From IMG/VR virus record IMGVR_UViG_3300029904_000004, positions 1 to 64,000 of that record: a stretch of DNA of 64,000 nucleotides; one strand, given 5' to 3'. The notes beneath the pieces are model-generated. The model was not told where the DNA came from and made no database searches. It saw nothing but the letters and a program-made list of their open reading frames with translations. Origin of the DNA: a virus. This document shows, piece after piece, positions 1-30,770 of the stretch. Within the stretch, counting starts at the first letter, position 1; each line of letters opens with the position of its first letter. The position numbers and the translations under genes are program-made.

Positions 1-39
1 AATTTCAAACCGGCTTGCAATTATCAAAATTTAGATAAA

Positions 40-258
40 ATGACAACAGTTACTTATTATCGCTTGCGAATCTCCAGGAGGTTGCGCAACGGGCAGTACG
101 ACCACAAGTATTCTAAGGAGTATTCATCAGTTGCTGAATTATTCAAGCAGCCTGGGTTTGCTAAATACTTAGAAGAAAACGTTGCTGGTAACATCTATGT
201 CTCACTTCACTTAGAAAGGCGTAGTGTAGTAGTAGAAGAGAAAGGGGGTGCCAAATGA
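40..258 (+). CDS. hypothetical protein (72 aa)
   Basis: ORF track. ATG start; the TGA stop overlaps the next ATG (ATGA at 255-258). Confidence 0.5.
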   Translation: MTTVTYYRLRISRRLRNGQYDHKYSKEYSSVAELFKQPGFAKYLEENVAGNIYVSLHLERRSVVVEEKGGAK

Positions 259-443
259 AGCACCTCTTTTCTCAAATAATGATAGCTCTCGCACTTATGT
301 GCGGAGCTGTCTTTATTGCCAGCGTGTTTGTTGCTTGTTTGTCGGATGACATCAATGTGATTCGTATAGGGTGTCTCATGTCGTGGGTTAGTAGCGGTTT
401 CGGGTTCTTATTCGCAGTATTCGGGACTGATTTATCTGACTAA
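255..443 (+). CDS. small membrane protein (62 aa, two hydrophobic helices)
   Basis: ORF track. Hydrophobic segments IMIALALMCGAVFIASVFVA and WVSSGFGFLFAVFG. A hairpin plus T-tract follows. Confidence 0.55.
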   Translation: MKHLFSQIMIALALMCGAVFIASVFVACLSDDINVIRIGCLMSWVSSGFGFLFAVFGTDLSD

Positions 444-447
444 GGGG

Positions 448-476
448 GTGCGCTTATGCGCACTCTCTTTTATTTT
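448..476 (+). terminator. intrinsic terminator-like hairpin
   Basis: GTGCGC-TTAT-GCGCAC stem-loop followed by a TCTCTTTTATTTT run, directly after the stop at 443. Confidence 0.55.
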
Positions 477-681
477 GCTTCTAAGGCGTTTAAATTACCT
501 CAGCGGTACAATTGTCCACCTAATAGGAGAAAACCCGTCAGATCGCTTTAAAATGCGTTTTAGAGGTGTTCTACAATACTGTATACCCAATCCGCTCAAT
601 TTCCCGGCTCACTTCGTTCGCTAATCTGTACACTTTACAGCAGTCCGCAGATTTTAAGTATAACCCTTAAATATTACCGAA

Positions 682-2732: not shown

Positions 2733-3182
2733 ATGAGATACGTTGTAAATATCGATCCTGTCACTAATTTATCAAGTGATAAAAACTTCTTCTTTGGCAC
2801 TGGTTTCCTGGGTGCAGAGTTTTCTACTAAGAAGGAATTGACAGAGCTTCTTTACAAGTATGCAACCATTGAGAAGGATGGAAAACGCTACTGGAGAGAG
2901 TATATCAAACTCTCTTTTTCTCTTGCTTCTACTATCTCCTCTATTAAAGAAGAGGGTGATAGGCAGGCTAAAGAGAATGGTGTTGTTAACCTATTCACCG
3001 CTTGTCTTGCTGCAAAGAAAGACCCGTTTTACGGTATTCATGTCTATTATCGTCCTGCTGGATGGTTAGATGAGAATGGGAATGTCTTTAAATTTGTGGT
3101 TGAGAAAGGAAAGGAGTTAACTCCTAACTACGGTAAACTATCTAATATCCTTAAAGAACTTGGTATAGAGATTGAGCAATGA
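2733..3182 (+). CDS. hypothetical protein (149 aa)
   Basis: ORF track. The stop overlaps the next start (ATGA). Confidence 0.65.
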   Translation: MRYVVNIDPVTNLSSDKNFFFGTGFLGAEFSTKKELTELLYKYATIEKDGKRYWREYIKLSFSLASTISSIKEEGDRQAKENGVVNLFTACLAAKKDPFYGIHVYYRPAGWLDENGNVFKFVVEKGKELTPNYGKLSNILKELGIEIEQ

Positions 3183-3436
3183 AAAGGATAACTGACTATT
3201 GCAGCAGGGTCTGGGTAAATCCCGAAGATTCTGCTGCTACTGGTAGTATTGTTTGTTATGACGGTTATATGGATGATGAGAGGATTTCCTTTATGGAAAT
3301 AGCCTCTTGTCATTCTAAGGCCAGGTTACATCAATACAAGGATAGTACACCAGAAGAGTTTTTGAGTAAGCTCAAGCTAGTTAGAGAGGAATTGGATAAG
3401 TTTATTAACCATTTAGAAGAACAACTATGTATATAG
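3179..3436 (+). CDS. hypothetical protein (85 aa), terminates on TAG
   Basis: ORF track. The final codons are TGT ATA TAG. Confidence 0.6.
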   Translation: MKRITDYCSRVWVNPEDSAATGSIVCYDGYMDDERISFMEIASCHSKARLHQYKDSTPEEFLSKLKLVREELDKFINHLEEQLCI

Positions 3437-3669
3437 CATTTCCCCCTTCAAAAATCGTTGCGTTCTATAGATACAGAACAGCATTGGTATTTGGCTTTAG
3501 TATTTCGGATGTAGATGAAACTACTCTACGTATTGTTCGAAGAGTATTAAAGCGAAATGGATATGAAATGGATAATCATATCTGTTGGACAACTGAAGAT
3601 GGTCTTTCTTACATGTGGTCTGATGGAAGATTAACCGTAGGAACTAACCTGGTTGTGAGAAACTGGTAA
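3427..3669 (+). CDS. hypothetical protein (80 aa)
   Basis: ORF track. Confidence 0.5.
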   Translation: MYIAFPPSKIVAFYRYRTALVFGFSISDVDETTLRIVRRVLKRNGYEMDNHICWTTEDGLSYMWSDGRLTVGTNLVVRNW

Positions 3670-3751
3670 TATACAGAAAGCCAGCGCTGTAAAGACTGGC
3701 ACATTTTCTAATAATCTTAAAACTCGCGATGGTGGTTAATCGCAGAACAAC

Positions 3752-3985
3752 ATGAGACAGTATTTTTATCTCGTAGGACACGACATCGTAGGTGATGATT
3801 TTGTTGCTGATAAGATTTTCTTGCAGGAACATGAAGCACTGAGATGGGGAAGGAAGCTTGCTACTAAAAATCCTGATTATAGTGTTAAACTGTATAAGCA
3901 GGAAATTACTAGAACTGGCAAATTGAAGTTTGTAAAACAGCTCAAAGCTTTCCTAACACCAGAAATCGATAATAATCAATATTAA
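3752..3985 (+). CDS. hypothetical protein (77 aa)
   Basis: ORF track. Confidence 0.55.
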   Translation: MRQYFYLVGHDIVGDDFVADKIFLQEHEALRWGRKLATKNPDYSVKLYKQEITRTGKLKFVKQLKAFLTPEIDNNQY

Positions 3986-3992
3986 TCGAAAT

Positions 3993-4502
3993 ATGGAAAC
4001 AAAAGACAAAATCATCCAGTTATTAAACACCACAAAGACTGGTAGTGTGAAAATACTTGTAAGTATGACTTATGAACACAGTTCAAGTTATACGACAACT
4101 ATTATGGCACGCAAGGTAAGCTTGTTAGGTAAGAATGACCTCTGTATAACGAATATAAATGGTAATTTATATCCTATCAGTGACCGAATTCGTAACAGAG
4201 ATGGAGTATTAGACGCTATACTTTCGCAAGTTATGACCGCTACTAATAAGCAAAAGTACTATGCGTTTATGCCATTCTTTCATTGGGGTGAGATAATGGA
4301 TGAAAAACCTGAACCAGATGGTGTAAAGGTATTTGGTGATTACGTGTTGGCAAATATTTGTAAGACAACAGATTACAATCTTGCCATGACTCTTTATGCT
4401 GAAACTCCTTGTCCTGCAAGTCAATTAGTTGAAGCAAACTCTTGGGAAGAACTCGATGAAAAAATTGAGGAAACGAAAAAGCTTTTTGACAAGCGAGAAT
4501 AA
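3993..4502 (+). CDS. hypothetical protein, paralog of 682..1260
   Basis: ORF track. Shares the C-terminal motif block with 682..1260. Confidence 0.75.
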   Translation: METKDKIIQLLNTTKTGSVKILVSMTYEHSSSYTTTIMARKVSLLGKNDLCITNINGNLYPISDRIRNRDGVLDAILSQVMTATNKQKYYAFMPFFHWGEIMDEKPEPDGVKVFGDYVLANICKTTDYNLAMTLYAETPCPASQLVEANSWEELDEKIEETKKLFDKRE

Positions 4503-4530
4503 GTTAACGAACTTGAAAAATATCTATAAC

Positions 4531-4809
4531 ATGACTAACAAAGCCAAAAACAGCCTAATATTTACATTAATTGTATTATTGGGTGTGAGTATTTTCTGCA
4601 ACTTGTATCAATCACATTGTTGGAGTAAAGCTTGCGAGCTCGTTGAATGTTATGACCGTGTAGTAGACACAATTGACGATGATTATTTTTTGGATGTCAT
4701 TTGTACAACAGATGAATGGAGAAATCTTCAGAATTGCGTCGAACGTAATCATCTTGGGTGTGGTTGTCCTAAAGATATCATGCCCATAGATAGTCCTGAG
4801 CAAGACTAA
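4531..4809 (+). CDS. membrane-anchored Cys-rich small protein
   Basis: In-frame ATG inside track ORF 4429..4809, chosen to avoid overlap with 3993..4502. N-terminal hydrophobic helix (LIFTLIVLLGVSIFC), then several Cys. Confidence 0.55.
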   Translation: MTNKAKNSLIFTLIVLLGVSIFCNLYQSHCWSKACELVECYDRVVDTIDDDYFLDVICTTDEWRNLQNCVERNHLGCGCPKDIMPIDSPEQD

Positions 4810-4843
4810 AACTGCTCATATTGCTAACTTATGATGATTAAGT

Positions 4844-5035
4844 ATGACTACAAATAGACAAAAAGCTGCTGTTCACTTTTGTGAACAATGGCTCCATGTT
4901 ACCTTTGAAGGTGATATCAATGACTTTCAACAAGTAAGTCACTTTTTGTCAATTTACTTAGACGAGGCTAAAAGTCTCTATAATGAAGTCAGATGCGAAT
5001 ATGAATCTTATTTATGGGATTTAATGATGGATTAA
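4844..5035 (+). CDS. hypothetical protein (63 aa)
   Basis: ORF track. Confidence 0.5.
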   Translation: MTTNRQKAAVHFCEQWLHVTFEGDINDFQQVSHFLSIYLDEAKSLYNEVRCEYESYLWDLMMD

Positions 5036-5381
5036 CGTGGAATCAATCAAGTATAGTTCCGAACCTTGCAGGGGCAAGCACAATTCTCAGTGTAATTGAG
5101 AGAGTAGTCTATGATGAGGACGAATATAAATCATCACGTTAAAAACACTTATATTAAGTGGGAAGTTCTACGTAAACTGAACAAATACGATATTCAATAT
5201 GCATAAATTGAATATCCTGCATAATGTACGACGGCAAAGTATGTATATGTAGATTCAAGCAGCAAAATGCAAAATAATGCTGAAGGATGTAGTCGCTACC
5301 TGACAAGCGGTAACCCAGGCCTAACGTATATTTGTGCCTTACGGGTGAATATGTTCGCCAAAACATAGTCAGATTTGCAGT

Positions 5382-5420
5382 GTAGGGGAGATTGTACAGT
5401 CTCCTCTACATTTTTAATTT
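5382..5420 (+). terminator. intrinsic terminator-like hairpin inside an ORF-poor spacer
   Basis: 10-bp stem GTAGGGGAGA/TCTCCTCTAC with an 8-nt loop, followed by ATTTTTAATTT. Confidence 0.55.
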
Positions 5421-5555
5421 GGTTATTCACGCAACAGTATATACTTTGACTACGTTTGCCATCAAGGCATACTGCGAATAATAGTAACAGTAGTTTAAAA
5501 TGTAGGTATTGCCTATAGAAATAGGACACAAAGCCTCAAATGGCGCAAATAAATC

Positions 5556-9528: not shown

Positions 9529-10005
9529 ATGGGAAAAGTAATTAAATTCTTAATGTTGTTGTGCTGTGTAACATTAATCACAGCATGTAAAAACGAACAA
9601 TCAATTTCTCCGCAAGAGAAAGCAAGTATTGTTCAGTTGAGTGTTGAACAGGCTACAACGCCTACATTCGACAGTGTAGACAGTTTTGTCAATTACACAA
9701 TCGATTATCGTGAAAAAGCACGATTTGTAGATGTATGTAACACCCTCTCCTTAAAAGAACTAAAGGAAATGTCCAAAGTTATATTACAAAGGGAGGGTTA
9801 TATCGACTACAAGCTGCTTCTGAAAGAATATGATACATCATACCAGCGTGTATATCGTTATTTGAATAATGAAAACGAAGATGTTTCAAACTTAGAATCG
9901 GCAAGTCATGATAAGAACGACACGATTGTAGTAAATAACATAACACCTAATTCAACACCAAACAATGGAACAACAAGCAATAGTAATTCTGTTCACAGGA
10001 AATAG
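9529..10005 (+). CDS. putative lipoprotein, terminates on TAG
   Basis: ORF track. Signal peptide with a lipobox-like LITAC. Stop is TAG, followed two codons later by TGA TGA. Confidence 0.7.
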   Translation: MGKVIKFLMLLCCVTLITACKNEQSISPQEKASIVQLSVEQATTPTFDSVDSFVNYTIDYREKARFVDVCNTLSLKELKEMSKVILQREGYIDYKLLLKEYDTSYQRVYRYLNNENEDVSNLESASHDKNDTIVVNNITPNSTPNNGTTSNSNSVHRK

Positions 10006-11275: not shown

Positions 11276-12183
11276 TCCTGCTCGTATACACTAAAATCAT
11301 CCGCACAAGAACCTTAGAGTCACGTGCTGGTGTTTATTAATCGAGGATTACAGGAGTTTAATCAAAATTAATAACCACCGTCTATGAATTGACATAGAAT
11401 CAAAGAGCCTTGGAGCCATGTAGGATGTAAAACTCTCAAAATAGGGAGAATAAACTATATTATCTTTTTACCACCAATCATTGGTTACAATTTGAGAACC
11501 TTTGAGTCATTGTGTATTATTGAATTTGCTCTGATACATAACAAATTGTAAATCAAAAAGCGTTGTATAGCCTCAAGAACCGCAGAGTCACGAGATTACT
11601 ATATGTATTTCAATCATATTCTTTATACAACACGTGTTAGACTCATTTATTTGCGTTTTAAGAGCTTCAAAAATCGTCGATGGATTAGCTACCCATAAGC
11701 GAGAACTGAGGCGATTAGAGCGCATTTAAATGACGTTTTAGGGCATTTTGAGTTTGCTACTCAATTTGCCCACTATTTGTTCTCAAGTGATTATGACGCA
11801 AATATTATGGACCGCAGTTCGAGTCTGCGCACGTCCACGACCTCTTATTCACTGTTTGACATAATAAACACTTGGCTCAGGCATGTTGTGAAACACCCTG
11901 AGTTTTTAATACGGGCGTGACAGGATTTGACATAATAGGAGATAAGTATGATGGGAACAGATGTTCAAACAATAAATGGCAATGTAAACAACATTGTTGA
12001 CTACACTCACGTAGCGTGAGCACAGTCATTAAGTAGCTGTACTTAATTAATTAAAACAGTAAGGAGCCTGGCACCCAGATGGTAAGTGGTTGATGTTATA
12101 TAGGAGAGTTATTTAAATAACCTTGTATATAGCTATAAAAGTTCATGGTTCGAGTCCATGCAGGCTCCCAAAATCAATTTATT
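11276..12183 (+). other. ORF-free region with periodic repeats and T-arm-like hairpins; candidate structured RNA(s) or regulatory array
   Basis: The track has no ORF of 60 aa or more in any frame here. Four copies of an AGAACC-NN-(A/T)GAGTCA-like motif occur at about 11307, 11403, 11494 and 11575. GGTTCGAGTCC-type hairpins lie at 11809-11836 and 12144-12160. Confidence 0.5.
12063..12168 (+). other. tRNA-like element (acceptor-type 7-8 bp helix plus canonical T-arm) of non-canonical length (~105 nt)
   Basis: GGAGCCTG at 12063-12070 pairs with CAGGCTCC at 12161-12168. T-arm is CATGG-TTCGAGT-CCATG. The middle part folds as a long AT-rich hairpin and I could not fit a normal D arm or anticodon arm by eye. 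Confidence 0.3.
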
Positions 12184-12636: not shown

Positions 12637-13087
12637 TTTATTTCCAGAGTCTCCGGGACTGTATATAGCCCAGAGAAATGCAGATGTTGTCCTGTTTAAA
12701 TTGACAGGAATGAGTCCTACATTAGTAGTGACTAAATCTATCTATCTATCTAAAATGATAGAAGGAAACTCTATTGTCGAAGCTCCTAAAGAATTGTTAG
12801 CAAATATGCTTCTGTATGCTAATAAATGGAGTTTCAGTATGCTGAAGCAAATTAACATGGACGTATTTCCCAGGCTTGTATTCAAGTGTGATGGAAACTT
12901 GGACCTGACTACAGACGAATTGTTGTCAATGAAAACAACATATTATCGTTTTGTACAATGTGGAGTTCCTCCATCAATTATACTCCGAGCCTTAATGTAT
13001 GAGTATAAAATTACGATGACCCAAGTAATCGACCTCGTAAATAAATTTGACAGAGATGTTAATACCTCCAGTTTTAGACAGGTATGA
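12623..13087 (+). CDS. hypothetical protein (154 aa)
   Basis: ORF track. Confidence 0.65.
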   Translation: MDTINLFPESPGLYIAQRNADVVLFKLTGMSPTLVVTKSIYLSKMIEGNSIVEAPKELLANMLLYANKWSFSMLKQINMDVFPRLVFKCDGNLDLTTDELLSMKTTYYRFVQCGVPPSIILRALMYEYKITMTQVIDLVNKFDRDVNTSSFRQV

Positions 13088-13439
13088 AAATACCTTACGA
13101 CTACAAGACCATTATGAATGGGCAAGACGCGTATGGACATTATATCGATTTGAATATGTAGAATATAACAAACGATGTATTGAACCATTCGCCTGTTGTT
13201 TAATTTGTGGAAATTGGAGAGATTTACGAGAGTGGTTACATTGGGTCAATCGTAATATCGTACTTAATTTGGGATTAGATTCTAAAGAGACTATCGCAGT
13301 CAAACTAAGAATTGCTACGGGAATGTTGAATAAAATAGAAACACTTGATTCTGTACAAAAAATCCAAATTCATTCGAACCTAACTCGTAATATATGGTAT
13401 GAATCATATATTATCGAGACAGAAGATTTACCATTTTAG
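13047..13439 (+). CDS. hypothetical protein (130 aa), terminates on TAG
   Basis: ORF track. The stop is TAG, followed by TTA then TGA. Confidence 0.6.
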   Translation: MTEMLIPPVLDRYENTLRLQDHYEWARRVWTLYRFEYVEYNKRCIEPFACCLICGNWRDLREWLHWVNRNIVLNLGLDSKETIAVKLRIATGMLNKIETLDSVQKIQIHSNLTRNIWYESYIIETEDLPF

Positions 13440-16425: not shown

Positions 16426-18498
16426 TGATTAGGTCTCATTAGCCTGATATAACAATGAAATACTTCAAAAGTAACTGGGTGGGAGAATATGTTAGCCTCC
16501 TCAAGAGGTGAGAAACTCAAAAGGTACCACGAAAGGCATATTGCGTGAAAAACAATATGTCAGTAGGGAGAGCGTTGTATCAACCCTAACATTTTGTATA
16601 TGAGAACCGACTGGAGATATACAATCTAAGGAAGACGCGTAAGTCGTGAGTTGACAATCATGCAAAACGAACCGTAGCTAATACTCTTTATTATTCGATA
16701 CAGATAATATTGGTAACGTTACAAGTGCTGCAAGATATAAGTCTCCAAAACTTATATTATGTATCAACAATGCTTACTCTAGTGTTTCTGCGTTCCAAGC
16801 GTAGTATAAAGGGAGGACAATAATCGGAGTAATAGTAGAGAAGGACTTGGTAGATATTCTATGATTTAGATTAGGGTATGTCAAATAGACCAAGCTGTAT
16901 GGTAAATACAGTGTCTAGATAAATCCGTACTGTTTGATTCAGTAGCCTTTTGAGTCATTAAAGGGTCCAGAGATGCGGTAAAAATTATGGCTGAGAAAAC
17001 TACTACCGACCGCCAGGCCTTGGTCGTTCATGCGGTATATAAAAGTGGAATGACCAGATGTATGGGGCAAATACATAGCGTCTAGAGTCCGCGTTCATAG
17101 GACTGAAGACAGAATTGTGGTATGTGCATTAGCAACACAAAACACATGAAATAGATGTTAATGAGATGACTACTTGACAGTCAAAAGAAGGCATTTTAAT
17201 GCTTGGATGCCCGAAAGAAATAAGCATACATTAGTTGATTCGAGGTATAGCACGCCAGCTATAACTGACCTCCACTAATGCCAGTAAAATGTTATAATCC
17301 CTATTTACAGATATATTCATAGAATTATATAATATCTATTATTCTCTATGTAAAGAGAAAGAACCTATTACACTAAGGAATAATGATAGTTATTACATAT
17401 GATAGTAGTGCATATAATTAGAGTATTGAAATAAAGAAAAAGATTATACATAAAGGTGTAGGAGAAAAGCTACATATTAAGTATTCTCACAAAGTAACAT
17501 TGTTTAACAAAAATCGATGTCCTCCGGATGTGAAAAACCTTATGTTGTAAATAAGAAGTAACTCCCGGAAAGTTCGAGTGCCAACCGTTATGTGGTAACC
17601 AGACTAAACTTTACATGTGAAAATGTGAAGGTAAATCTAAAGGTAGAACCAATACAGAAAGATAAGTAGGCAGCTCATGCTCAGTATCGCAGTGCAGTAA
17701 GCGTATGCGTGTTAGTGATGAACTAACCTTGGTGTATACTGTCTCTATACATCAGGAAAGTATGAGTGGGTGATAACTATTTAGTATGTATTCAGTTAAA
17801 TTCTGACGTATTCGCGCACTATAAATAAAGTTGGTTTTTAGTAAGGTTTTCCGTAGAATAACCACCGTAGACTCGTAGATACCCACTGAAGGCTAGAGTG
17901 TTCGATAATGAAACGTTTGGTTGTTTACGTTAAAAACAATACGTGGAGACTATTGATTGTTCTACCTGCCACAAGTAAAGGGAGAACAGGGGTAGCTGCG
18001 CCTAATCAGGTATCGCAAGACAGGATTACAGCAGCGGAGAATGACCACTCCTTAAAACACTTATATCCAAGTCTGGGAAACAAGGATATTTGAATCTTAT
18101 CGGTTTAACTTAATCTGGCAGAGTATATCTACGATTCCGCGAAACATTAGATATATATCTGTCAGATAAAAACAATTAGTTTTCTATTCCAAAAAAGAGT
18201 TTGCATATGAAATGCTAAATGTCATTCGAAGCTTTCCTGGGATATGGTTAATATGGGTTATGAAGCTTAGCTAATCCTACCATTGGATTCTTCTGTTATA
18301 TTGAGCCTCCTCGAACGAGTAATAGTATATAACAAGCCTGTATTGTATTAAAGCGAATCTTTAGCTACAAAGATAACATTAAAAAGAAAAACTCTGGAAT
18401 CAAAACAAACAAAAAGCTCGTGTAAAGCTGATTTACACATTAGTAATAAAATTTGTCGTGGGTGGAATCAACCACGATATCAAAAAGGACAAATTTTT
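16426..18498 (+). other. 2.07-kb ORF-free region; candidate large structured non-coding RNA(s)
   Basis: The track shows only one marginal 61-aa ORF (17908..18093) in six frames. Several GC-rich hairpins are visible (for example AGTCC-GCGTTCATA-GGACT near 17085 and CGACC...GGTCG near 17008). It shares motifs with the 11.3-12.2 kb and 20.57-20.66 kb regions. Confidence 0.45.
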
Positions 18499-19744: not shown

Positions 19745-19820
19745 GACTCTATAGCTCAGTTGGTAGAGCAACAGGCTTTTAATCTGTGGGTCCAGAGTTC
19801 GAATCTCTGTAGAGTCACCA
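19745..19820 (+). tRNA. tRNA-Lys (anticodon UUU), CCA encoded
   Basis: Hand-folded cloverleaf. Acceptor GACTCTA/TAGAGTC. D-arm GCTC-AGTTGGTA-GAGC. Anticodon arm ACAGG-CTTTTAA-TCTGT. T-arm CAGAG-TTCGAAT-CTCTG. Ends in ACCA. Confidence 0.85.
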
Positions 19821-20428: not shown

Positions 20429-20440
20429 ATATCATATATT

Positions 20441-20498
20441 ACTATATGCATAGGGCAGTCCTTAGAGAAGTGTGGTTCGAGTCCCACTATAGTAACCA
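20441..20498 (+). other. truncated tRNA-like minihelix (acceptor stem + T-arm + ACCA, no D-arm)
   Basis: TACTATA pairs with TATAGTA. The T-arm is GTG(T)GG-TTCGAGT-CCCAC and the element ends in ACCA. Only ~21 nt lie between the acceptor stem and the T-arm, and no 7-nt anticodon loop could be folded. Confidence 0.3.
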
Positions 20499-20603
20499 AT
20501 TCGGTCTCGTCTATCGGAAACATCGCTTCCTTCTTTTTCAAGCATAATATCAGTTTTTAATTTTTGTTAGTTGGTTTTTGTTTGTATTAGTAAGGCGTTG
20601 AGG

Positions 20604-20655
20604 ACGTATGCGTAGTGATACGTATAAAAGATAGGTTCGACTCCTATGACCGAAC
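20604..20655 (+). other. tRNA-like 3' module (hairpin with 8-nt loop + perfect T-arm)
   Basis: ACGTAT-GCGTAGTG-ATACGT hairpin, then ATAGG-TTCGACT-CCTAT, then GACCGAA. The only complement (TTCGGTC) lies ~150 nt upstream at 20500-20506. Confidence 0.25.
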
Positions 20656-21593: not shown

Positions 21594-21679
21594 GCCTCGA
21601 TGATGGAACTGGGAGACATTTAACACTTAAAATGTTATGTTCCGTAAGGAACGTGTGGGTTCGAATCCCACTCGAGGTA
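21594..21679 (+). tRNA. tRNA-Leu (anticodon UAA), class II with long variable arm
   Basis: Acceptor GCCTCGA/TCGAGGT. 3-bp D-stem ATG/CAT. Anticodon arm TAACA-CTTAAAA-TGTTA. Variable arm GTTCC-GTAA-GGAAC. T-arm GTGGG-TTCGAAT-CCCAC. Confidence 0.8.
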
Positions 21680-21773
21680 CTATACCGTTAGCATGTTGTT
21701 GTTAATTTAGTTTTTTTCGAGTACGGTGGTTCGCGAGAATAGCCGTATTTTTATTATTAAGAGTCCGTGAACC

Positions 21774-23633
21774 ATGATAATACACGATAAAACAGTAATA
21801 ATATATGATATAGAATCGTTTCCAAATTTCTTTTGTTGTACATGTAAGAATACAGAAACTCAAAGTATAAGAACATTTGAGATTTCTCTAAGACAAAGTG
21901 ACATATTAGAATTAAGTAATTACTTTTCAAAGAAAGAATTATTATTTTGTGGATATAATAATAAACATTACGACGATGTTGTAATAAATTATATTATTAT
22001 GTATGCAGAAAAAATGATTCAATTTCCAAAATTACGTATTACTGATTCTATTTTCAATTTGTCGCAATATATAATAAAAGAAGATATTGATAAATATAAG
22101 CGATTTAAATATGCAAATTTGTTTGAATCTATGGATTTACTAACTATGATGTTTAGTAGTAAATTAAGAGTAGGTTTGAAAGAAATGCAATTGACAATGC
22201 ATTACGATAATGTACTCGAATATGAAGGTGACTTTAATGATTATGTACAACCTGAAGATTATTCTAAAATAATTGAGTACAATATAAATGACGTAGAATC
22301 TACTACTTGTTTGTTTAATAAACTTGTAGATAAAGGAGAAATAGATTTACGTTTATTCATTGAAGAAGAATACGGATTCAATGCGCTTTCAATGGATAGT
22401 GTCAAGTTTGGAGAAACAATTCTGGCTAAAAAAGTTTGTGAAGAATTACACATAGACAAAAGACAACTAGAAAAAATGCGTTCCCCAATGGACATGATTC
22501 CATTGAAAGATGTCATATTACCGTTTATAAAATATAAAAATCCGAAATTTCAACAAGTTCTTGAAGATATGAAAGAGCAAATAGTATCTTCTAAAGAACG
22601 TAAAAGCTACGAGAATAAGTTCGTTGTCTCGAATTTACAGTATTCTATAGGAATTGGTGGAATACATTCTATCAATAAACCAAGGATATATGTTCCTAAA
22701 GAAGACGAATATATTGGACATCTTGATGTTGCTTCAATGTATCCGAGTTTCATTGTGCAGTATGGGTGGTTTCCTACTCAATTAGGTAAAGCAGGTTTGG
22801 ACGTGTATATAGATTTATATTACCAAAGGTTACACGCCAAACATAGCGGGCAGAAACTTAAGAATCTTGCTCTAAAATTGGTTCTTAATTCTGTTACAGG
22901 AAAAATGCAACAAGAGACCTCTTGGTTATACGACCCGAAGAGTGTATTTAAAATAAGAATAAATGGGCAATTAGTCTTATTGATGCTTGCAGATATCTTA
23001 CTTCAATATAATTGTGAGATAATACAAGTAAATACAGATGGTGTGATGTTTATTGCTAAGAAAGATAGAGAATCAGATATAATGGAATCGGTATCTGAAC
23101 TTGAGCGATTAACTAAATTGTCTTTTGAAGCGGACCGCTATGAAGCGTTTTATCAATACGCCGTTAACGACTATTTCGGTGTGGTTAACGAAAATAAGAT
23201 AGAAAAAAAAGGTATGTTTATAACAGAAAACAAATTGGGTAAAGGACTCACACCAACCATTATTCCAAAAGCTGTTATAGCATACTTTACTAAACATATC
23301 CCTATAAGGGATACAATACGTAATTGTAATGATATATATGAATTCTTGATGGCCCAAAGAGTTGATAAAAAATTCAAGATAGAATATAATAATCATTACG
23401 TTCAACGTATAAACAGATATTATGCAAGTACAAAAGGTTATTGGCTTTATAAAATAAAACACGAAAACGGAAAAGAAAGCTTTGAAAACATGCTTACTAA
23501 ATCTGGTGTAAAAATATTGAATAAAATCGATAATACTGACGTACCTGATGATATAAACTATGCGTATTATGAAAGTGAAGCACGAAAAATTATTAATGAT
23601 TTAGAGTGTAGACAACTTGATTTATTTGCATAG
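21774..23633 (+). CDS. family-B DNA polymerase, terminates on TAG
   Basis: Exo motifs YDIES, YNNKHYDDVV and YNINDVES. Polymerase motifs DVASMYPS (A), KLVLNSVTGK (B) and QVNTDGV (C). Stop is TAG, with TAA five codons later. Confidence 0.9.
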   Translation: MIIHDKTVIIYDIESFPNFFCCTCKNTETQSIRTFEISLRQSDILELSNYFSKKELLFCGYNNKHYDDVVINYIIMYAEKMIQFPKLRITDSIFNLSQYIIKEDIDKYKRFKYANLFESMDLLTMMFSSKLRVGLKEMQLTMHYDNVLEYEGDFNDYVQPEDYSKIIEYNINDVESTTCLFNKLVDKGEIDLRLFIEEEYGFNALSMDSVKFGETILAKKVCEELHIDKRQLEKMRSPMDMIPLKDVILPFIKYKNPKFQQVLEDMKEQIVSSKERKSYENKFVVSNLQYSIGIGGIHSINKPRIYVPKEDEYIGHLDVASMYPSFIVQYGWFPTQLGKAGLDVYIDLYYQRLHAKHSGQKLKNLALKLVLNSVTGKMQQETSWLYDPKSVFKIRINGQLVLLMLADILLQYNCEIIQVNTDGVMFIAKKDRESDIMESVSELERLTKLSFEADRYEAFYQYAVNDYFGVVNENKIEKKGMFITENKLGKGLTPTIIPKAVIAYFTKHIPIRDTIRNCNDIYEFLMAQRVDKKFKIEYNNHYVQRINRYYASTKGYWLYKIKHENGKESFENMLTKSGVKILNKIDNTDVPDDINYAYYESEARKIINDLECRQLDLFA

Positions 23634-27196: not shown

Positions 27197-28186
27197 ATGT
27201 ATAGTACAAAAACAGCAAAAACAAATACTTTAAAAGATATTTTGCTAATGTTAGATGACTACGATATATTCTCGTATTATTTAGGGAATTTTCAAGTTGG
27301 AAAGCTTTATAATAGTCCGTTAAGAAGTGATGATAAAAATCCTTCATTTGCTGTATTTCGCAGTAATAAAAATAACTGTCTATTGTTCAAAGACCACGGA
27401 AGTGGACAATTTGGGAATGCTCTAACGTTTGTAAAAACTATAAATCATATTACAAATGATGAGGATTTAGAAAAAGAATTATTACGAATTGTACGAAAAA
27501 GAAATCCTACTGGGAAAGTATTAACGCAAAATAGGAAATATGTAAATGAACACGTTACTGAAATTCAAATAGCTAGACAATCGTTTACTATTACAGATAT
27601 TCAGTATTGGAGTAAATATCATATTTCTACGAATACATTAAATAAATTTAATGTGTTTAGCATAAAGTATTTTCTTTGTAATGGAACCGTCAGAGGAGTC
27701 TATAAAGAAACAAGTCCTATGTATGCATATAAAGTGTTTGATAAATTTAAGATTTACAGACCTTTAGCCTCAAAGTATACTAAATGGCGTAGTAATCTGA
27801 CAAATTATCACGTTCAGGGGCTTGCTGAATTACCTGCAGATGGAGGGAATGTTCTCATAATAACAAAGTCTTTAAAAGATGTTATGGTACTATATGAGAT
27901 GGGATATAATGCTATTTCTGCGTCAAGCGAGACTACTTTTATACCTCATGAAATATTAAATATGTTGAAAGCAAAATGGAAACATATTTTAATACTTTAT
28001 GATAGAGATAGTACTGGTATGATTAAAGCTCGTGAATACAGTAAACAAAGCGGATTCCCCGCATTTTTCGTACATCGTAAGTTTCATTCTAAAGATATAT
28101 CAGATGCAGTTATGAATAATAGTTTTGAAGAAGTTGAAAAATGGTTAGATAAAGAACTAAAAAAATATGGGGACACAAAGAGTTAA
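27197..28186 (+). CDS. primase-like protein with TOPRIM domain
   Basis: LIITKSLKDVMVLYEMGYNAISASSE...ILILYDRDSTG pattern. Replication-module context. Confidence 0.7.
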   Translation: MYSTKTAKTNTLKDILLMLDDYDIFSYYLGNFQVGKLYNSPLRSDDKNPSFAVFRSNKNNCLLFKDHGSGQFGNALTFVKTINHITNDEDLEKELLRIVRKRNPTGKVLTQNRKYVNEHVTEIQIARQSFTITDIQYWSKYHISTNTLNKFNVFSIKYFLCNGTVRGVYKETSPMYAYKVFDKFKIYRPLASKYTKWRSNLTNYHVQGLAELPADGGNVLIITKSLKDVMVLYEMGYNAISASSETTFIPHEILNMLKAKWKHILILYDRDSTGMIKAREYSKQSGFPAFFVHRKFHSKDISDAVMNNSFEEVEKWLDKELKKYGDTKS

Positions 28187-28544
28187 AAATGCGACAAAGG
28201 TCAATAAGTATGGTATACAATTCAGGTCAAAACTTGAATGTTATACTTATGAAGCTTTTATGAATGCTGGAATACCAGTTAAATATGAGCCAAAGCATTT
28301 TACTCTTTTACCAAAATTTGAGTATATGGGAGAAAAGATACGTCCTATTACATATTTACCTGATTTTATAGGTAAAGGATTTGTAGTAGAATGTAAAGGT
28401 CTTATGGGGGATTCGTTCCCTTTAAGATTTAAGCTTTTTAAGCATTACTTAAAACGACATCGTAGTAAGATGAAATGTTACTTGGTGAGAAATCATAAAC
28501 AAGTAGACGAAATGATAAAAGACATTAAATGCAATATATCATGA
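28167..28544 (+). CDS. small PD-(D/E)xK-fold nuclease (resolvase-like)
   Basis: YLPDF...VVECKG matches a D...ExK signature. 125 aa. Confidence 0.6.
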   Translation: MGTQRVKNATKVNKYGIQFRSKLECYTYEAFMNAGIPVKYEPKHFTLLPKFEYMGEKIRPITYLPDFIGKGFVVECKGLMGDSFPLRFKLFKHYLKRHRSKMKCYLVRNHKQVDEMIKDIKCNIS

Positions 28545-29314
28545 ACACAAATTTTATAAAAAGAGGAACACGAATATTTACAACACCGTTAGGATTAGAT
28601 TATACTTTAAGGACTGACGTTGCTTATAAATTGTCTTTCGACGGATGGGAGGGAATTTGTTATCTTGAAGAAACAAAATTACCTGTATTCCCAGAAGGAT
28701 GTTATACAAAAACGATAGATAAATTTATAAATAAAGTACTCGTTAGTTTTAATAGTGCAACTAATTCTAATACGGGAGTATTGCTTACAGGATTGAAAGG
28801 TTCTGGAAAAACACTTACAGCAAAACGATTAGCTGTACGTAGCGGTATTCCTATGATTATTGTAAGTGATAATTGTCCTGCATGTAAATTGATAAATTTC
28901 TTTTCTAATATACATCAAGAAGTATGTGTAATATTTGATGAAATAGATAAAAATACCAAGATGTGGGATACTTCACAATTATTATCATTTCTTGATGGTT
29001 TTGAAACATTGTGTAAGAAATTAGTTATATTTACATGTAACAATGTAAGTTTTGCAAATGAGAATCTCATAGACCGTTGTTCAAGGATTCGTTATTTTAA
29101 AGAATATCAAGGTCTTTCTGAAGAAGAAATAGACTTTATATTAGACGATTTGTTGTTGTATGATGATAAAAAAGACGTTTGTAAAAAATGTATATCGTCT
29201 ATAAAAACAAAGAGTTATGATAATATTATTTCTTTTATTAAAGAAGTAAATAATTATAAAGACGAAGACCCTGAAGAATTGTTAAAAGATTTGAATATAA
29301 ATGTAAAACAATGA
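28529..29314 (+). CDS. AAA+ ATPase
   Basis: Walker A GLKGSGKT and Walker B VIFDEIDK. Confidence 0.75.
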   Translation: MQYIMNTNFIKRGTRIFTTPLGLDYTLRTDVAYKLSFDGWEGICYLEETKLPVFPEGCYTKTIDKFINKVLVSFNSATNSNTGVLLTGLKGSGKTLTAKRLAVRSGIPMIIVSDNCPACKLINFFSNIHQEVCVIFDEIDKNTKMWDTSQLLSFLDGFETLCKKLVIFTCNNVSFANENLIDRCSRIRYFKEYQGLSEEEIDFILDDLLLYDDKKDVCKKCISSIKTKSYDNIISFIKEVNNYKDEDPEELLKDLNINVKQ

Positions 29315-30279
29315 ATATAACAATTCCATATTACGATGATGTTTCGCGTATCTCAAATTCTAATATAGGCTGGTTCATTAAATATGGGCCGGCCTATTTG
29401 CATAAAATGCTGACAACTCACCCAGAAGAACAAAGTACAGCAGCCATGCGAAAAGGTACAATGATACATATGTATTTATTACAACCTGAAGAATTTGTAA
29501 ATACGTATGAACAAAAGGATTTTATAGAACCTAAATCTGTACAACAGAAAAAGTTCTGTGAAAGCCTTATAAATACATTAGAAATAGAGCCAAATAAAGC
29601 CCTTCTGAGCGCATATAAAGATAGTTATAGTACAGTTGGCCAGTCAGAGGATTTAATGCTCTCTAAAGCAAAGGAAATGGCCTCTACGTTTAAATCTTAC
29701 ATCGAGTATAATAAAAACCCGAACAGTAAGACTAAAATATCACGATATGATGTAGCAATGCTTGAAAATATACGTGATAAAGTACAGGAACATAAACTTG
29801 CAAAAGAACTTATAAATCCTAAAGAAGGAGAAACACACCACGAGTTTCATATAAACTGGGAACATTGTGATGTACAATGTAAATCGTTATTGGATAGTGT
29901 CAACTTTAATTTTAAAGCTAAAATATGTACACTTGTAGATTTAAAAACTACTGTACATATTGGTTGTTTTGAAGAAAGTATGAAAGAATATGATTATTTA
30001 AGACAACTCTGTTTTTATCAGGAAGCTTTAAAATGGTATATAAGTAATGAATTACATCAAGACCCGATGGATTGGATGTTTGATGTATACATTGTAGCTA
30101 TAGACACTGTAAACGATAATGAGATACGTGTATTTAGGTTTTATCCTTCACAGATTAAGTCACGTTTACAAACTATCGAAAATGTCTTAAAAGAGATTAA
30201 ATGGCATCAAGATACTGATAAATGGGAACATCACAAACAATATTATGACGGTGATGGAAGTGAAACATTGAGCCTATGA
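29311..30279 (+). CDS. RecB/Cas4-family PD-(D/E)xK exonuclease
   Basis: LVDLKTT (DxK) followed by QLCFYQEAL (QxxxY). ATGA overlaps on both sides. Confidence 0.75.
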   Translation: MNITIPYYDDVSRISNSNIGWFIKYGPAYLHKMLTTHPEEQSTAAMRKGTMIHMYLLQPEEFVNTYEQKDFIEPKSVQQKKFCESLINTLEIEPNKALLSAYKDSYSTVGQSEDLMLSKAKEMASTFKSYIEYNKNPNSKTKISRYDVAMLENIRDKVQEHKLAKELINPKEGETHHEFHINWEHCDVQCKSLLDSVNFNFKAKICTLVDLKTTVHIGCFEESMKEYDYLRQLCFYQEALKWYISNELHQDPMDWMFDVYIVAIDTVNDNEIRVFRFYPSQIKSRLQTIENVLKEIKWHQDTDKWEHHKQYYDGDGSETLSL

Positions 30280-30770
30280 GCCTAAAACTAAAAACAATAA
30301 TTCCTTTTATAGATAAAAATATAACTGAAAAAGATGTATCTCCATGTTCAGGTTTTATTGAAGCGTATCGTTTTGATGAAAACAGACCTAATATTAGAGA
30401 TTGTATATTTTTAGTATATGATGCAAGTATGCATAGTATAGAACAATTCGAACGATTACATAAGTTTAAAAACTTTAAATCGTTACGTAGCACGGTACTT
30501 TATACTATAAAAGGGAAAAAATATACAATTTATGCATTTACAATTACAGATAAAAGTTTATTATTAAATTTAGACAATGCTGTAACATTTGTTCATAATC
30601 CTGCCCGTGTTTTGCAATTTTGGGGCGTGTCTGATGAACACTTTGTGAACAATGTTGTATGTCCGGATAAAATAATATATCCCGACAATACGTATATCCC
30701 AGAAAAGGATTTTATTCCTGATCTGAATGATGTACGTAAAATGCATAAATTAAGGGTGGCCGCTTCGTAA
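30276..30770 (+). CDS. hypothetical protein (164 aa), last gene of the plus-strand block
   Basis: ORF track. Confidence 0.65.
   Translation: MSLKLKTIIPFIDKNITEKDVSPCSGFIEAYRFDENRPNIRDCIFLVYDASMHSIEQFERLHKFKNFKSLRSTVLYTIKGKKYTIYAFTITDKSLLLNLDNAVTFVHNPARVLQFWGVSDEHFVNNVVCPDKIIYPDNTYIPEKDFIPDLNDVRKMHKLRVAAS

What the first reader, a model, noticed from the sequence alone, without database searches (positions are those of the whole stretch)
1..30770. The early/replication block keeps the standard code: TAG is still a terminator there, usually with a nearby backup stop, and no suppressor tRNA is visible
About 50 plus-strand ORFs tile the strand with no in-frame TAG.
- **TAG as stop:** four genes end on TAG: 3179..3436, 9529..10005, 13047..13439 and the DNA polymerase 21774..23633.
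- **Backup stops:** in three of these a second stop follows within 1-5 codons. The sequences are TAG TTA TGA at 13437, TAG TCT TCC TGA TGA at 10003, and TAG followed by five codons then TAA at 23631. This is what one would expect if TAG becomes leaky late in infection.
- **tRNAs:** the only clean tRNAs here are Lys(UUU) and Leu(UAA), both of which supply AT-rich codons. I found no loop of the form T-CTA-R in any tRNA-like fold, and no recognisable release factor or Gln-tRNA synthetase.

The recoding machinery is therefore either outside this window, hidden in one of the non-canonical tRNA-like elements, or host-derived.
Basis: partly seen in the sequence, partly recalled or inferred. Interest (0 to 1): 0.7.

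Follow-up and report, generated by a model that had tools for sequence, protein, structure and literature searches.

The report
Dual-code crAss-like phage, early block
This is the early half of a gut crAss-like phage that writes its early genes in the normal genetic code and its late genes with TAG read as glutamine, a pattern already described for these phages, and the missing amber suppressor tRNA most likely lies about 5 kb outside the window.

Summary
The pattern is real but already known. The window is part of a ~98 kb Suoliviridae (delta crAss-like) phage.

**Code split**
- The plus-strand block 1-30770 holds 50 ORFs (8,290 codons) with no in-frame TAG. About 93 would be expected at the late-block rate.
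- The minus-strand block needs TAG read through: 123 in-frame TAGs, and ORF coverage rises from 0.65 to 0.99.
- In ~96% identical genomes, TAG swaps with CAG/CAA, so TAG most likely encodes Gln.

**TAG stops**
- The four TAG-ending early genes are real terminations. For three of them, orthologues end at the same residue with TAA or TGA.
- The backup-stop idea fails. Three of four is not beyond chance (P=0.10). A pooled test on 13 early blocks shows no enrichment (38% vs 32%, p=0.30).

**Suppressor tRNA**
- No tRNA(CUA), release factor or aminoacyl-tRNA synthetase is in the window.
- A 92-98% identical genome carries tRNA(CUA) about 4.9 kb left of window base 1. It lies on the late strand, after five TAG-free genes and before the first TAG-containing gene.

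- A permuted tmRNA at 11748-12110.
- A conserved ~2.1 kb ORF-free region at 16426-18498 with strong base-pair covariation. It looks like an undescribed large structured RNA.

The parts
1..30770 (+). Early/replication block, translatable in the standard code. It holds 50 ORFs (8,290 codons) with 0 in-frame TAG. Stop usage is TAA 31, TGA 15, TAG 4.
   Evidence: Synteny with Dulem virus 42 and cr130_1 runs from about 8.2 kb onward. Pfam finds an ECF sigma factor, DnaB helicase, AAA ATPases and a PDDEXK nuclease.
3179..3436 (+). TAG-terminated early gene (85 aa). The next TAA/TGA is 38 codons downstream, so it has no nearby backup stop.
   Evidence: The L012 orthologue also ends on TAG at the same place.
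9529..10005 (+). TAG-terminated early gene (158 aa), followed by TCT TCC TGA TGA.
   Evidence: The orthologue in L012 ends at the same residue on TGA and also has a second TGA four codons on.
13056..13439 (+). TAG-terminated early gene (127 aa from the ATG; 130 aa from the TTG at 13047). The TGA two codons on is part of the ATGA start of the next gene, which begins at 13442.
   Evidence: The 97.5% identical L163 has TAA TTA TGA at the same site, and most relatives use TAA or TGA.
21774..23633 (+). Family A-type crAss DNA polymerase (619 aa) ending on TAG. An in-frame TAA lies 6 codons on, inside a conserved intergenic motif.
   Evidence: The protein is 66.6% identical to the Dulem virus 42 polymerase. 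Orthologues end at the same ...LDLF(A) residue with TAG, TAA or TGA.
19745..19820 (+). tRNA-Lys(UUU).
   Evidence: ARAGORN. Rfam tRNA, 73.2 bits. AAA makes up 66-80% of Lys codons.
21594..21680 (+). tRNA-Leu(UAA). It is conserved in nearly all relatives.
   Evidence: TTA is the commonest Leu codon.
11748..12110 (+). Circularly permuted (two-piece) tmRNA gene.
- Acceptor piece: T arm at 11813-11829 and the 3' acceptor strand CACGTCC-A at 11830-11837.
- Coding piece: starts GGGCGTG at 11913.
- Tag reading frame: 11978-12019, encoding GNVNNIVDYTHVA then TGA.
   Evidence: ARAGORN. Rfam RF04321, 66.8 bits against a gathering score of 47. The G3:U70 pair was read from the sequence. The gene sits in the same syntenic position in Dulem 42, cr130_1, cr124_1, L162, L163, L013, L018-L021 and L023.
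16426..18498 (+). Conserved 2.07 kb ORF-free region, a candidate large structured RNA.
   Evidence: - No ORF is found under any single stop reassignment.
- It is 81% identical in nucleotides to L013, with no codon periodicity and many 1-2 nt indels. Flanking genes are 64-80% identical with a third-position bias.
- The predicted structure has 360 pairs. 90.9% of cells are paired, against 35-42% when partners are slid. 170 pairs show compensatory change on both sides, against 45-64 when slid, and 0 of 500 shuffles reach the observed values.
- No Rfam family matches at E<=10.
12063..12170 (+). tRNA-like element A. It has a GGAGCCU/AGGCUCC acceptor stem, a T arm and a long irregular hairpin in place of an anticodon arm.
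   Evidence: Fold z-score is -3.0. ARAGORN calls it only with the intron option. It is found only in L162, at 98% identity. It has no CUA loop.
20440..20655 (+). tRNA-like elements B and C. B (20440-20498) has a 7-bp acceptor stem, a T-loop and an encoded ACCA. C (20500-20655) has a UUCGGUC/GACCGAA acceptor stem and a T arm around a 119-nt insert.
   Evidence: Neither has a blastn counterpart in any fetched relative. Neither scores as a tRNA in Rfam at E<=1.
30849..63778 (-). Late/virion block written with TAG as a sense codon (Gln). It holds eight genes of 1748, 5694, 552, 691, 1621, 309, 149 and 226 aa, with 123 in-frame TAGs in 10,990 codons. TAG makes up 21% of Gln-type codons.
   Evidence: In ~96% identical genomes TAG swaps with CAG/CAA in 11 of 14 changes. 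In cr130_1, Q aligns at 14 of 63 TAG sites against a 3.6% background. Orthologues carry the Pfam families CrAss_Ring_1, CrAss_Ring_2 and crAss_MUZ.

Best explanation
**What it is**
- The window is 64 kb of a ~98 kb crAss-like phage of the Suoliviridae (delta) group.
- Its first 11,260 bases are identical to ENA contig ERZ27239284 k119_37345, positions 3295-14554.

**The two blocks**
- The plus-strand block 1-30770 is the early/replication module. It is written so that host ribosomes can read it in the standard code. TAG never occurs in frame and serves as a rare but real terminator in 4 of 50 genes.
- The minus-strand block from 30.8 kb onward is the virion/late module, where TAG encodes glutamine.

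**The switch**
- It is most likely made by a phage amber suppressor tRNA(CUA).
- This tRNA is not in the window. It should lie about 4.9 kb to the left of base 1, on the late strand.
- In the near-identical genome it follows five TAG-free genes and precedes the first TAG-containing gene.
- That tRNA starts with U1-A72, G2-C71 and G3-C70. These are tRNA-Gln identity features by my own knowledge, so charging by the host GlnRS is inferred.
- No phage release factor or synthetase takes part from this block.

**Consequences for the early genes**
- Once suppression is on, the four TAG-ending early proteins would gain 2, 3, 6 or up to 38 residues.
- Nothing in the sequence shows selection to limit that.

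**Shown and inferred**
- Shown: the code split, TAG acting as a stop in the early block, TAG swapping with Gln codons, absence of a suppressor in the window, and its presence and position in close relatives.
- Inferred: the early/late timing, charging by the host GlnRS, and presence of the tRNA in this very genome.
For: - **Code split:**
- **TAG as a terminator:** orthologues interchange stop codons at conserved C-termini.
- **TAG under-used as a stop:** 4 TAG against 15 TGA stops, binomial p=0.0096.
- **TAG = Gln:**
- **No suppressor, release factor or synthetase in the window:**
- **Source contig identity:**
- **Suppressor just outside the window:**
  - L162 is 92-98% identical to the window's early block. 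It has tRNA(CUA) at 5066-5139 on the minus strand, and L162 position 10001 corresponds to window position 40.
  - The tRNA sits after five TAG-free genes and before the first TAG-containing gene.
  - Dulem 42, cr130_1, cr124_1, L009/L011 and L133 have the same layout.
- **Literature:**
  - Stop reassignment is confined mostly to late genes, with suppressor tRNAs (PMC7886860).
  - Early genes are compatible with the standard code and a later switch follows (bioRxiv 10.1101/2021.08.26.457843).
  - Proteomic proof of code 15 exists for crAss-like phages (PMC9523058, abstract).
Against: - I could not read the rest of the source contig, so the suppressor is not shown in this very genome.
- Three relatives have no tRNA(CUA) near the dUTPase gene (L012 within 10 kb, L132 and L144 within 6 kb) although L012's late genes carry in-frame TAG. 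The tRNA is therefore not universal at that position.
- A 5,694-codon gene with 63 TAGs needs almost complete suppression. A tRNA competing with host RF1 does not obviously deliver that, so an unidentified factor may also be needed.
- The early/late assignment rests on gene content and analogy, not on expression data.
Confidence: 0.85

Rival explanations
1. The close second stops after TAG-ending early genes are selected fail-safes. They limit read-through once TAG becomes leaky late in infection.
For: - Three of the four TAG stops in the window have a TAA/TGA within 6 codons.
- All five TAG-ending DNA polymerase orthologues (window, L013, L014, cr130_1, L021) have an in-frame TAA within 6 codons. 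In the TAA- and TGA-ending ones (L022, Dulem 42) the same motif is out of frame.
Against: - Window test: P=0.10 and Mann-Whitney p=0.19.
- Pooled test on 13 early blocks: 13 of 34 TAG-ending versus 100 of 310 other ORFs have a stop within 6 codons (Fisher p=0.30). The median distance is larger for TAG-ending ORFs, 15 against 10.5.
- The individual second stops are explained by a start-codon overlap and by a conserved intergenic motif. They persist where the first stop is TAA or TGA.
Confidence: 0.08
2. The suppressor is inside the window, disguised as one of the non-canonical tRNA-like elements: A at 12063-12170, B at 20440-20498 or C at 20500-20655.
For: - The three elements have true acceptor stems and T-loop motifs (GGTTCGAGTCC / GGTTCGACTCC), and B ends in ACCA.
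- Some relatives lack a recognisable tRNA(CUA) near the dUTPase gene.
- Yutin et al. raise the possibility of divergent, undetectable suppressors (PMC7886860).
Against: - None has a 7-nt loop with CUA.
- None scores as a tRNA in Rfam at E<=1.
- B and C are absent from every relative, and A occurs only in the near-identical L162. Yet all those relatives recode TAG.
- L162 has both element A and an ordinary tRNA(CUA).
Confidence: 0.04
3. This phage has no suppressor of its own. TAG decoding relies on a host tRNA or on a phage-induced change to host factors, such as inactivation of RF1 or near-cognate reading by tRNA-Gln.
For: - Three relatives lack tRNA(CUA) at the usual place, and L012's late genes carry in-frame TAG.
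- Borges et al. find suppressor tRNAs in only 35-40% of recoded phages.
- No suppressor is found in 64 kb of this genome plus 9.8 kb of a 96% identical relative.
Against: - The nearest genome for this region, L162, does carry tRNA(CUA).
- About 21 kb of the source genome was not examined.
- Relatives were scanned only near the dUTPase gene, so they may carry the tRNA elsewhere.
Confidence: 0.08
4. The early-block RNA genes are part of the code-switch machinery. The candidates are the permuted tmRNA at 11748-12110 and/or the 2 kb structured RNA at 16426-18498. For example, they could rescue ribosomes that run off host mRNAs after TAG read-through, or neutralise RF1.
For: - Both RNAs are conserved in the early block of every TAG-recoding relative examined, including Dulem 42, cr130_1 and cr124_1; L162 and L163 cover only the tmRNA.
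- From established knowledge of RF1-deficient E. coli, UAG read-through and stalling raise the demand for tmRNA.
- The tag ends in ...YTHVA rather than the usual ...ALAA. The ALAA comparison is from my own knowledge.
Against: - There is no functional evidence.
- All carriers belong to one subfamily, so co-occurrence with recoding may simply be shared ancestry.
- Other TAG-recoding phages are not reported to have these RNAs. Neither Yutin 2021 nor Borges 2021 mentions tmRNA.
Confidence: 0.06

Closest known systems
Stop-codon-reassigned crAss-like phages of the Delta group / Suoliviridae (Yutin et al. 2021, PMC7886860)
   Same: TAG is reassigned to Gln only in the part of the genome holding late genes. 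A phage suppressor tRNA is present. Giant virion and RNA-polymerase genes are full of TAG. The gene order is that of cr130_1 and cr124_1.
   Different: Nothing of substance. This genome is a new species-level relative: its DNA polymerase is 66.6% identical to Dulem virus 42 and 61% to cr130_1.
Borges et al. model: recoding as a regulator of late and lytic genes (bioRxiv 10.1101/2021.08.26.457843; published in Nature Microbiology 2022, from my own knowledge)
   Same: Early genes are compatible with the standard code. TAG is depleted as a stop codon. A suppressor tRNA lies ahead of the recoded genes. Charging by the host synthetase is presumed.
   Different: There is no 'code change module' with a release factor or synthetase, as in Jade or Lak phages. 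Here the only detectable element is the tRNA, and it lies outside the window.
Dulem virus 42 (PP511876.1), cr130_1 = Chuhaivirus simiae (NC_055901.1), cr124_1 = Burzaovirus faecalis (NC_055899.1)
   Same: They share the early-block synteny, the permuted tmRNA, the 2 kb ORF-free gap, tRNA(CUA) beside or near the dUTPase gene, and TAG-rich late genes.
   Different: - The first ~8 kb of the window's early genes have no homologues in Dulem 42 or cr130_1.
- The suppressor tRNA of the window's lineage (L162 and L133, acceptor UGGGGUA) is a different sequence type from that of Dulem 42 and cr130_1.
Two-piece (permuted) tmRNA, Rfam RF04321 (Alphaproteobacteria, Betaproteobacteria, Cyanobacteria)
   Same: The gene order is permuted. 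It has a tRNA-like domain with a G3:U70 pair and a T arm, and a tag reading frame with its own stop codon. It scores above the Rfam gathering threshold.
   Different: - It is encoded by a phage of a group reported to infect Bacteroidetes (PMC7886860 abstract). That those hosts have one-piece tmRNA is from my own knowledge.
- The 3' end reads ACGA, not ACCA.
- The tag ends in ...YTHVA.
- RefSeq annotates the gene in cr130_1 and cr124_1, but I found no paper that discusses it.

Membership tests
Dual-coded (code 11 early / code 15 late) crAss-like phage | Late genes are intact only if TAG is read as a sense codon. | tested here: met
   Coverage by ORFs of at least 100 aa on the minus block rises from 0.651 to 0.992 with TAG read through. 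TGA and TAA reassignment have almost no effect. There are 35 TAG joins against 1 each for TGA and TAA.
Dual-coded (code 11 early / code 15 late) crAss-like phage | Early/replication genes are free of in-frame TAG, and TAG still terminates there. | tested here: met
   No TAG occurs in 8,290 early codons, where 93 would be expected. Orthologues end at the same residue with TAG, TAA or TGA.
Dual-coded (code 11 early / code 15 late) crAss-like phage | The reassigned codon stands for glutamine. | tested here: met
   In 96% identical genomes, 11 of 14 changes at window TAG sites are to CAG/CAA. Q is enriched sixfold at TAG sites against cr130_1. This is indirect; there are no peptide data.
Dual-coded (code 11 early / code 15 late) crAss-like phage | The phage encodes a suppressor tRNA(CUA). 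| tested here: inconclusive
   It is absent from the 64 kb window. It is present about 4.9 kb left of the window in the 92-98% identical L162. The remainder of the source contig could not be retrieved.
Crassvirales, family Suoliviridae | crAss hallmark genes and synteny with classified members. | tested here: met
   - The best DNA polymerase hits among classified phages are Suoliviridae genomes.
- Orthologues of window genes 56893-63778 carry the Pfam families CrAss_Ring_1, CrAss_Ring_2 and crAss_MUZ.
- The gene order matches cr130_1.
- TerL, MCP and portal lie outside the window, so no marker-gene phylogeny was made.
Permuted tmRNA (Rfam RF04321) | The covariance-model score is above the curated threshold. 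| tested here: met
   66.8 bits against a gathering score of 47 in the window. Six relatives score 47.6-64 bits.
Permuted tmRNA (Rfam RF04321) | An alanine-identity G3:U70 pair in an acceptor stem formed by the two pieces. | tested here: met
   GGGCGUG (11913-11919) pairs with CACGUCC (11830-11836), with G11915 opposite U11834. This was read.
Permuted tmRNA (Rfam RF04321) | A tag reading frame with a resume codon and its own stop. | tested here: met
   ARAGORN predicts the tag GNVNNIVDYTHVA*. The tag is conserved as GNDNNIVDYTHVA, DNYNVVDYTHVA, GNVNNIVDYTNVA, GNNNCILDYTHVA and GTKNVIDYSCVA in relatives.
Permuted tmRNA (Rfam RF04321) | An encoded 3' CCA on the acceptor piece, and an SmpB partner. 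| tested here: not met
   The 3' end reads A-CGA rather than A-CCA, so CCA would have to be added after transcription. No SmpB-like protein turned up in the Pfam scan of the 20 largest early proteins. Use of the host SmpB was not tested.

The most novel reading that the evidence does not exclude
The early block's two conserved RNA genes may belong to the machinery that makes near-complete TAG suppression tolerable or possible. The two-piece tmRNA has an unusual ...YTHVA tag. The ~2.1 kb RNA is heavily base-paired and has no Rfam relative. Possible roles are clearing ribosomes that read through host TAG stops, or removing RF1 competition. A suppressor tRNA alone would then not be the whole switch.
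Probability: 0.06. Interest if true: 0.85.

Novelty: already known. Interest (0 to 1): 0.22.

Why it matters
For the finding itself it matters little. It is one more example of a documented strategy: early genes in the host's code, late genes behind a TAG-to-Gln switch.

It is useful as a clean, well-controlled case in two respects:
- It shows directly that TAG remains a working terminator in the early module of such a phage, because closely related genomes interchange TAG, TAA and TGA at the same stop position.
- It shows that 'backup stops' should not be read into such data without a background rate.

The practical lesson for annotation is that these genomes need two codes. The gene calls on the ENA contig read through TAG in both blocks. 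One early gene came out 3 codons too long and two others were not called at all.

Tried and rejected
**Attempts to reach the rest of the source genome**
1. An exact 41-mer from the window start found nothing in IMG/VR.
2. Look-up of the standard-code fragment 62279-62677 found nothing on record.
All late genes in the window contain TAG, so the right flank of the same contig was unreachable.
4. A dUTPase homologue chosen for its contig length (P0063) belonged to a different phage.
5. The closest ThyX (P0121, 93% identical) led to L012. L012 shares only patches of the early region. Its ring-protein homologue, from a contig of the same length, is only 69% identical (P0248), so it is not the closest genome overall.

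**Other searches that led nowhere**
6. A degenerate pattern for the Dulem/cr130-type suppressor tRNA gave 104 IMG/VR loci. None of the 80 listed was a contig of the close relatives, and the pattern cannot match the L162/L133 type.
7. The literature search found no paper describing tmRNA or a large non-coding RNA in crAss-like phages.

**Ideas rejected**
8. Coding potential of 16426-18498. No ORF appears under any single stop reassignment, there is no codon periodicity, and 1-2 nt indels are frequent.
9. In-frame TAG in plus-strand genes after revising gene starts. The single TAG join, at 2712, has no ATG in its upstream part and matches the TGA and TAA background.
10. Elements A, B and C as intron-containing tRNAs. 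ARAGORN calls them only with relaxed or intron options, with implausible anticodons.

Full report
**What the window is**

The DNA polymerase encoded at 21774-23633 is 66.6% identical to that of Dulem virus 42. It is 58-61% identical to those of cr130_1, cr131_1, cr272_1 and cr273_1. cr130_1 and cr124_1 are classified in Crassvirales, Suoliviridae, Oafivirinae.

The first 11,260 bases of the window are identical to positions 3295-14554 of ENA contig ERZ27239284 k119_37345, which is 98,241 bp long. The window is therefore about two thirds of a ~98 kb delta-group crAss-like phage genome. GC skew flips at about 30.8 kb. Genes run on the plus strand to the left of that point and on the minus strand to the right.

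**The code split is real and strong**

- Coverage by stop-to-stop ORFs of at least 100 aa on the minus block rises from 0.651 to 0.992 when TAG is read through. Reassigning TGA or TAA does almost nothing.
- With TAG read through, eight large genes appear, among them ORFs of 1748, 5694 and 1621 aa. They contain 123 in-frame TAGs in 10,990 codons.
- On the plus block, 50 ORFs with 8,290 codons contain no TAG. At the late-block rate 93 would be expected (P about 5e-41).
- Reading through TAG joins two ORFs of at least 50 codons 35 times on the minus block and once on the plus block. One is also the TGA and TAA background. That single plus-strand case, at 2712, has no ATG in its upstream half.

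**Which amino acid TAG encodes**

In three genomes about 96% identical to the late block (L129-L131), window TAG codons that differ are CAG or CAA in 11 of 14 cases. Against cr130_1, glutamine aligns with 14 of 63 window TAG positions, while the background Q frequency is 3.6%. TAG = Gln (code 15) is the best reading. It agrees with published proteomics on crAss-like phages (PMC9523058, abstract).

**TAG is a true terminator in the early block**

Stop usage is TAA 31, TGA 15 and TAG 4. TAG is under-used relative to TGA (binomial p=0.0096). This fits the 'divestment' of the future sense codon described by Borges et al..

Three of the four TAG-ending genes are validated by orthologues:
- The DNA polymerase ends at the same ...LDLF(A) residue in all relatives. 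The stop codon is TAG in the window, L013/14, cr130_1 and L021. It is TAA in L022 and L023/24, and TGA in Dulem 42. In L016-L020 a TAA follows three codons later.
- Gene 13056-13439 ends on TAG in the window and L162. It ends on TAA in the 97.5% identical L163 and in most other relatives.
- Gene 9529-10005 ends on TGA in L012.

For the fourth gene, 3179-3436, the only orthologue found (L012) also ends on TAG at the same position.

Interchange of stop codons at a fixed C-terminus is what true termination predicts.

**The backup-stop idea does not hold**

The next TAA/TGA after the four TAG stops lies at 38, 3, 2 and 6 codons. Among the other 46 genes the median is 10.5, and 33% have one within 6 codons. 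This gives P(at least 3 of 4)=0.10 and a Mann-Whitney p of 0.19.

I pooled 13 related early blocks, using a simple ORF caller and without removing homologous duplicates. That gave 34 TAG-ending and 310 other ORFs. A stop lies within 6 codons in 38% against 32% (Fisher p=0.30). The median distance is 15 against 10.5, and the Mann-Whitney p is 0.76.

Each of the three close second stops has a mundane origin:
- TTA TGA at 13440 contains the ATG of the next gene. It is unchanged in L163, where the first stop is TAA.
- The L012 orthologue of 9529-10005 ends on TGA and still has a second TGA four codons on.
- The TAA after the polymerase lies inside a conserved intergenic motif, CTTGTTAACC(A/T)AAGAGTATAAGAG-ATG. 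The motif is present whatever the polymerase stop codon is.

One weak hint remains. In all five TAG-ending polymerase orthologues the motif's TAA is in frame, while in two non-TAG ones it is not. The sample is small and not independent.

**The translation machinery in the window**

- ARAGORN (default, intron and relaxed settings) and Rfam find only tRNA-Lys(UUU) and tRNA-Leu(UAA).
- No sequence resembling five relatives' suppressor tRNAs is present. The only 5-bp hairpin with a YU-CUA-RN loop lies inside the giant late gene and has no tRNA context.
- The 20 largest early proteins have no Pfam match to a release factor or an aminoacyl-tRNA synthetase. The remaining early ORFs are at most 192 aa, shorter than a release factor or GlnRS by my own knowledge, and were not scanned here.

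**Where the suppressor is**

Every well-covered relative has one tRNA(CUA) on the late strand, close to the dUTPase gene at the head of the late-strand unit:

| Genome | Position of tRNA(CUA) |
|---|---|
| Dulem 42 | L002:48532-48605 |
| cr130_1 | L004:19868-19941 |
| cr124_1 | L172:47896-47967 |
| L009 / L011 | just upstream of the dUTPase gene |
| L133 | about 2.2 kb upstream of the dUTPase gene |

The decisive case is L162 (Logan SRR22579483_8162, 99,596 bp). It shares an identical 72-aa protein with the window and is 92-98% identical in nucleotides across the early block. Its tRNA(CUA) lies at 5066-5139 on the minus strand, and L162 position 10001 corresponds to window position 40. That places the tRNA about 4.9 kb to the left of window base 1.

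Going along the late strand from the divergent junction next to ThyX, L162 has five TAG-free genes. Then come the tRNA, a GIY-YIG endonuclease gene, and the first gene with in-frame TAG.

The source contig begins inside ThyX, so its copy of the tRNA would lie at the other end of the contig. I could not fetch that part.

Two cautions apply:
- L012, L132 and L144 have no tRNA(CUA) near the dUTPase gene (L012 within 10 kb, L132 and L144 within 6 kb), and L012's late genes carry in-frame TAG.
- The suppressors fall into two unrelated sequence types, L162/L133 against Dulem/cr130/L009. The gene has therefore been replaced or lost more than once.

The L162 tRNA begins with U1-A72, G2-C71 and G3-C70. 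By my own knowledge of E. coli these are tRNA-Gln identity elements. Charging by the host GlnRS is an inference from that.

**Comparison with what is known**

This is the pattern reported by Yutin et al. [quoted passage not shown] They describe suppressor tRNAs and note imperfect agreement between recoding and the presence of a suppressor (PMC7886860).

It also matches Borges et al.: early genes compatible with the standard code, a later switch, and a depleted stop codon. The MgCod preprint describes such genomes as blocks that use different codes (10.1101/2022.06.29.495998).

Nothing in the finding goes beyond these reports, so I rate it already known. Unlike the Jade and Lak phages, this early block shows no release factor or synthetase module.

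1. **Permuted tmRNA, 11748-12110.**
   - It scores 66.8 bits on Rfam RF04321 against a gathering score of 47, and ARAGORN also calls it.
   - The acceptor stem formed between the two pieces contains G3:U70.
   - The tag reading frame encodes GNVNNIVDYTHVA.
   - The gene occupies the same syntenic slot, with a conserved tag, in Dulem 42, cr130_1, cr124_1, L162, L163, L013, L018-L021 and L023.
   - RefSeq annotates it in cr130_1 and cr124_1. The tmRNA database paper counts 79 phage tmRNA sequences taken from RefSeq viruses (PMC11915505). I found no paper that discusses it.
2. **Conserved ORF-free region, 16426-18498.**
   - It has no ORF under any code.
   - It is better conserved than its neighbours: 81% nucleotide identity to L013 against 64-80% for flanking genes.
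   - It shows no codon periodicity and many 1-2 nt indels.
   - On a 12-genome alignment, an RNAalifold structure of 360 pairs has 90.9% of cells paired, against 35-42% when partners are slid.
   - 170 pairs show compensatory change on both sides, against 45-64 when slid and 95±6 when shuffled. None of 500 shuffles reaches the observed values.
   - Conserved G-U pairs indicate the plus strand.
   - No Rfam family matches at E<=10.
   - Six GenBank phages and 23 IMG/VR contigs carry it.
   - The structure was predicted on the same alignment on which it was scored, so the counts lean in its favour. The margin over the slid controls is nevertheless very large.

Whether either RNA has anything to do with recoding is untested. 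I give that a low probability.

Noticed in passing
window 16426-18498 (+): A ~2.07 kb ORF-free region looks like a large structured RNA.
- It is more conserved than the flanking genes: 81% nucleotide identity to L013, with no codon periodicity.
- Covariation is very strong: 360 predicted pairs, 90.9% of cells paired against 35-42% in slid controls, and 170 pairs with compensatory changes.
- It has no Rfam match at E<=10.
- It is present in 6 GenBank Suoliviridae genomes and 23 IMG/VR contigs.
- It is unannotated in RefSeq, and I found no paper describing it. It may be a new large structured RNA family.
   Followed up: partly
window 11748-12110 (+): A circularly permuted (two-piece) tmRNA gene is encoded by a phage whose group is reported to infect Bacteroidetes.
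- It has a G3:U70 pair and the tag GNVNNIVDYTHVA. The gene encodes ACGA where ACCA is expected.
- It is conserved at the same position in all relatives examined.
- RefSeq annotates it in cr130_1 and cr124_1, but I found no discussion of it in the literature.
   Followed up: partly
window 12063-12170, 20440-20498, 20500-20655 (+): Three tRNA-like elements have good acceptor stems and T-loops but no normal anticodon arm. Element B ends in an encoded ACCA. B and C have no counterpart in any relative, and A occurs only in the near-identical L162. They are probably tRNA debris or processing signals.
   Followed up: partly
window 9128-9200 (+): A weak match to the type-P1 twister ribozyme (36.5 bits, E=1.4e-4, below the gathering score of 67.2) lies in the intergenic gap between ORFs 8897-9082 and 9252-9503.
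   Followed up: no
window 23634-23667 (+) and homologous sites in L013-L022, Dulem 42, cr130_1: A conserved intergenic motif, CTTGTTAACC(A/T)AAGAGTATAAGAG, lies directly before the ATG of the gene downstream of the DNA polymerase. It contains a GTTAAC palindrome and is kept across genomes whose proteins are only about 55-70% identical.
   Followed up: partly
L013:17223-17298; L139:4749-4841, L143:5302-5394, L145:4578-4670; L020:17253-17324; L023:9848-9916: Several relatives carry tRNA-like genes that ARAGORN reports with four-base anticodons (gcaa, ggaa). Two more have anticodon stems that leave 6- or 8-nt loops. Some lie next to the suppressor tRNA. No 8-nt-loop tRNA of this kind was called in the window at default settings.
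   Followed up: no
L162:5066-5139 vs L002:48532-48605 / L004:19868-19941; L012, L132, L144: The amber suppressor tRNAs of related phages fall into two unrelated sequence types at about the same genomic place. Three relatives have none near the dUTPase gene. In L162 a GIY-YIG endonuclease gene starts right after the tRNA, and the dUTPase gene is split by an insert.
   Followed up: partly
L005 (source contig) genes at 12823-13308 and 1431-1922; window 3179-3669: The public gene calls on the source contig read through TAG in both blocks. Early gene 9529-10005 is therefore made 3 codons too long, another early gene outside the window is extended by 34 codons, and the ORFs 3179-3436 and 3427-3669 are not called at all.
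   Followed up: no
window 13442-13999 (+): An ECF-type sigma factor (Sigma70_r2 and r4_2, E about 1e-11) lies in the early block just downstream of the tmRNA. It is conserved in cr130_1, cr124_1 and Dulem 42.
   Followed up: no
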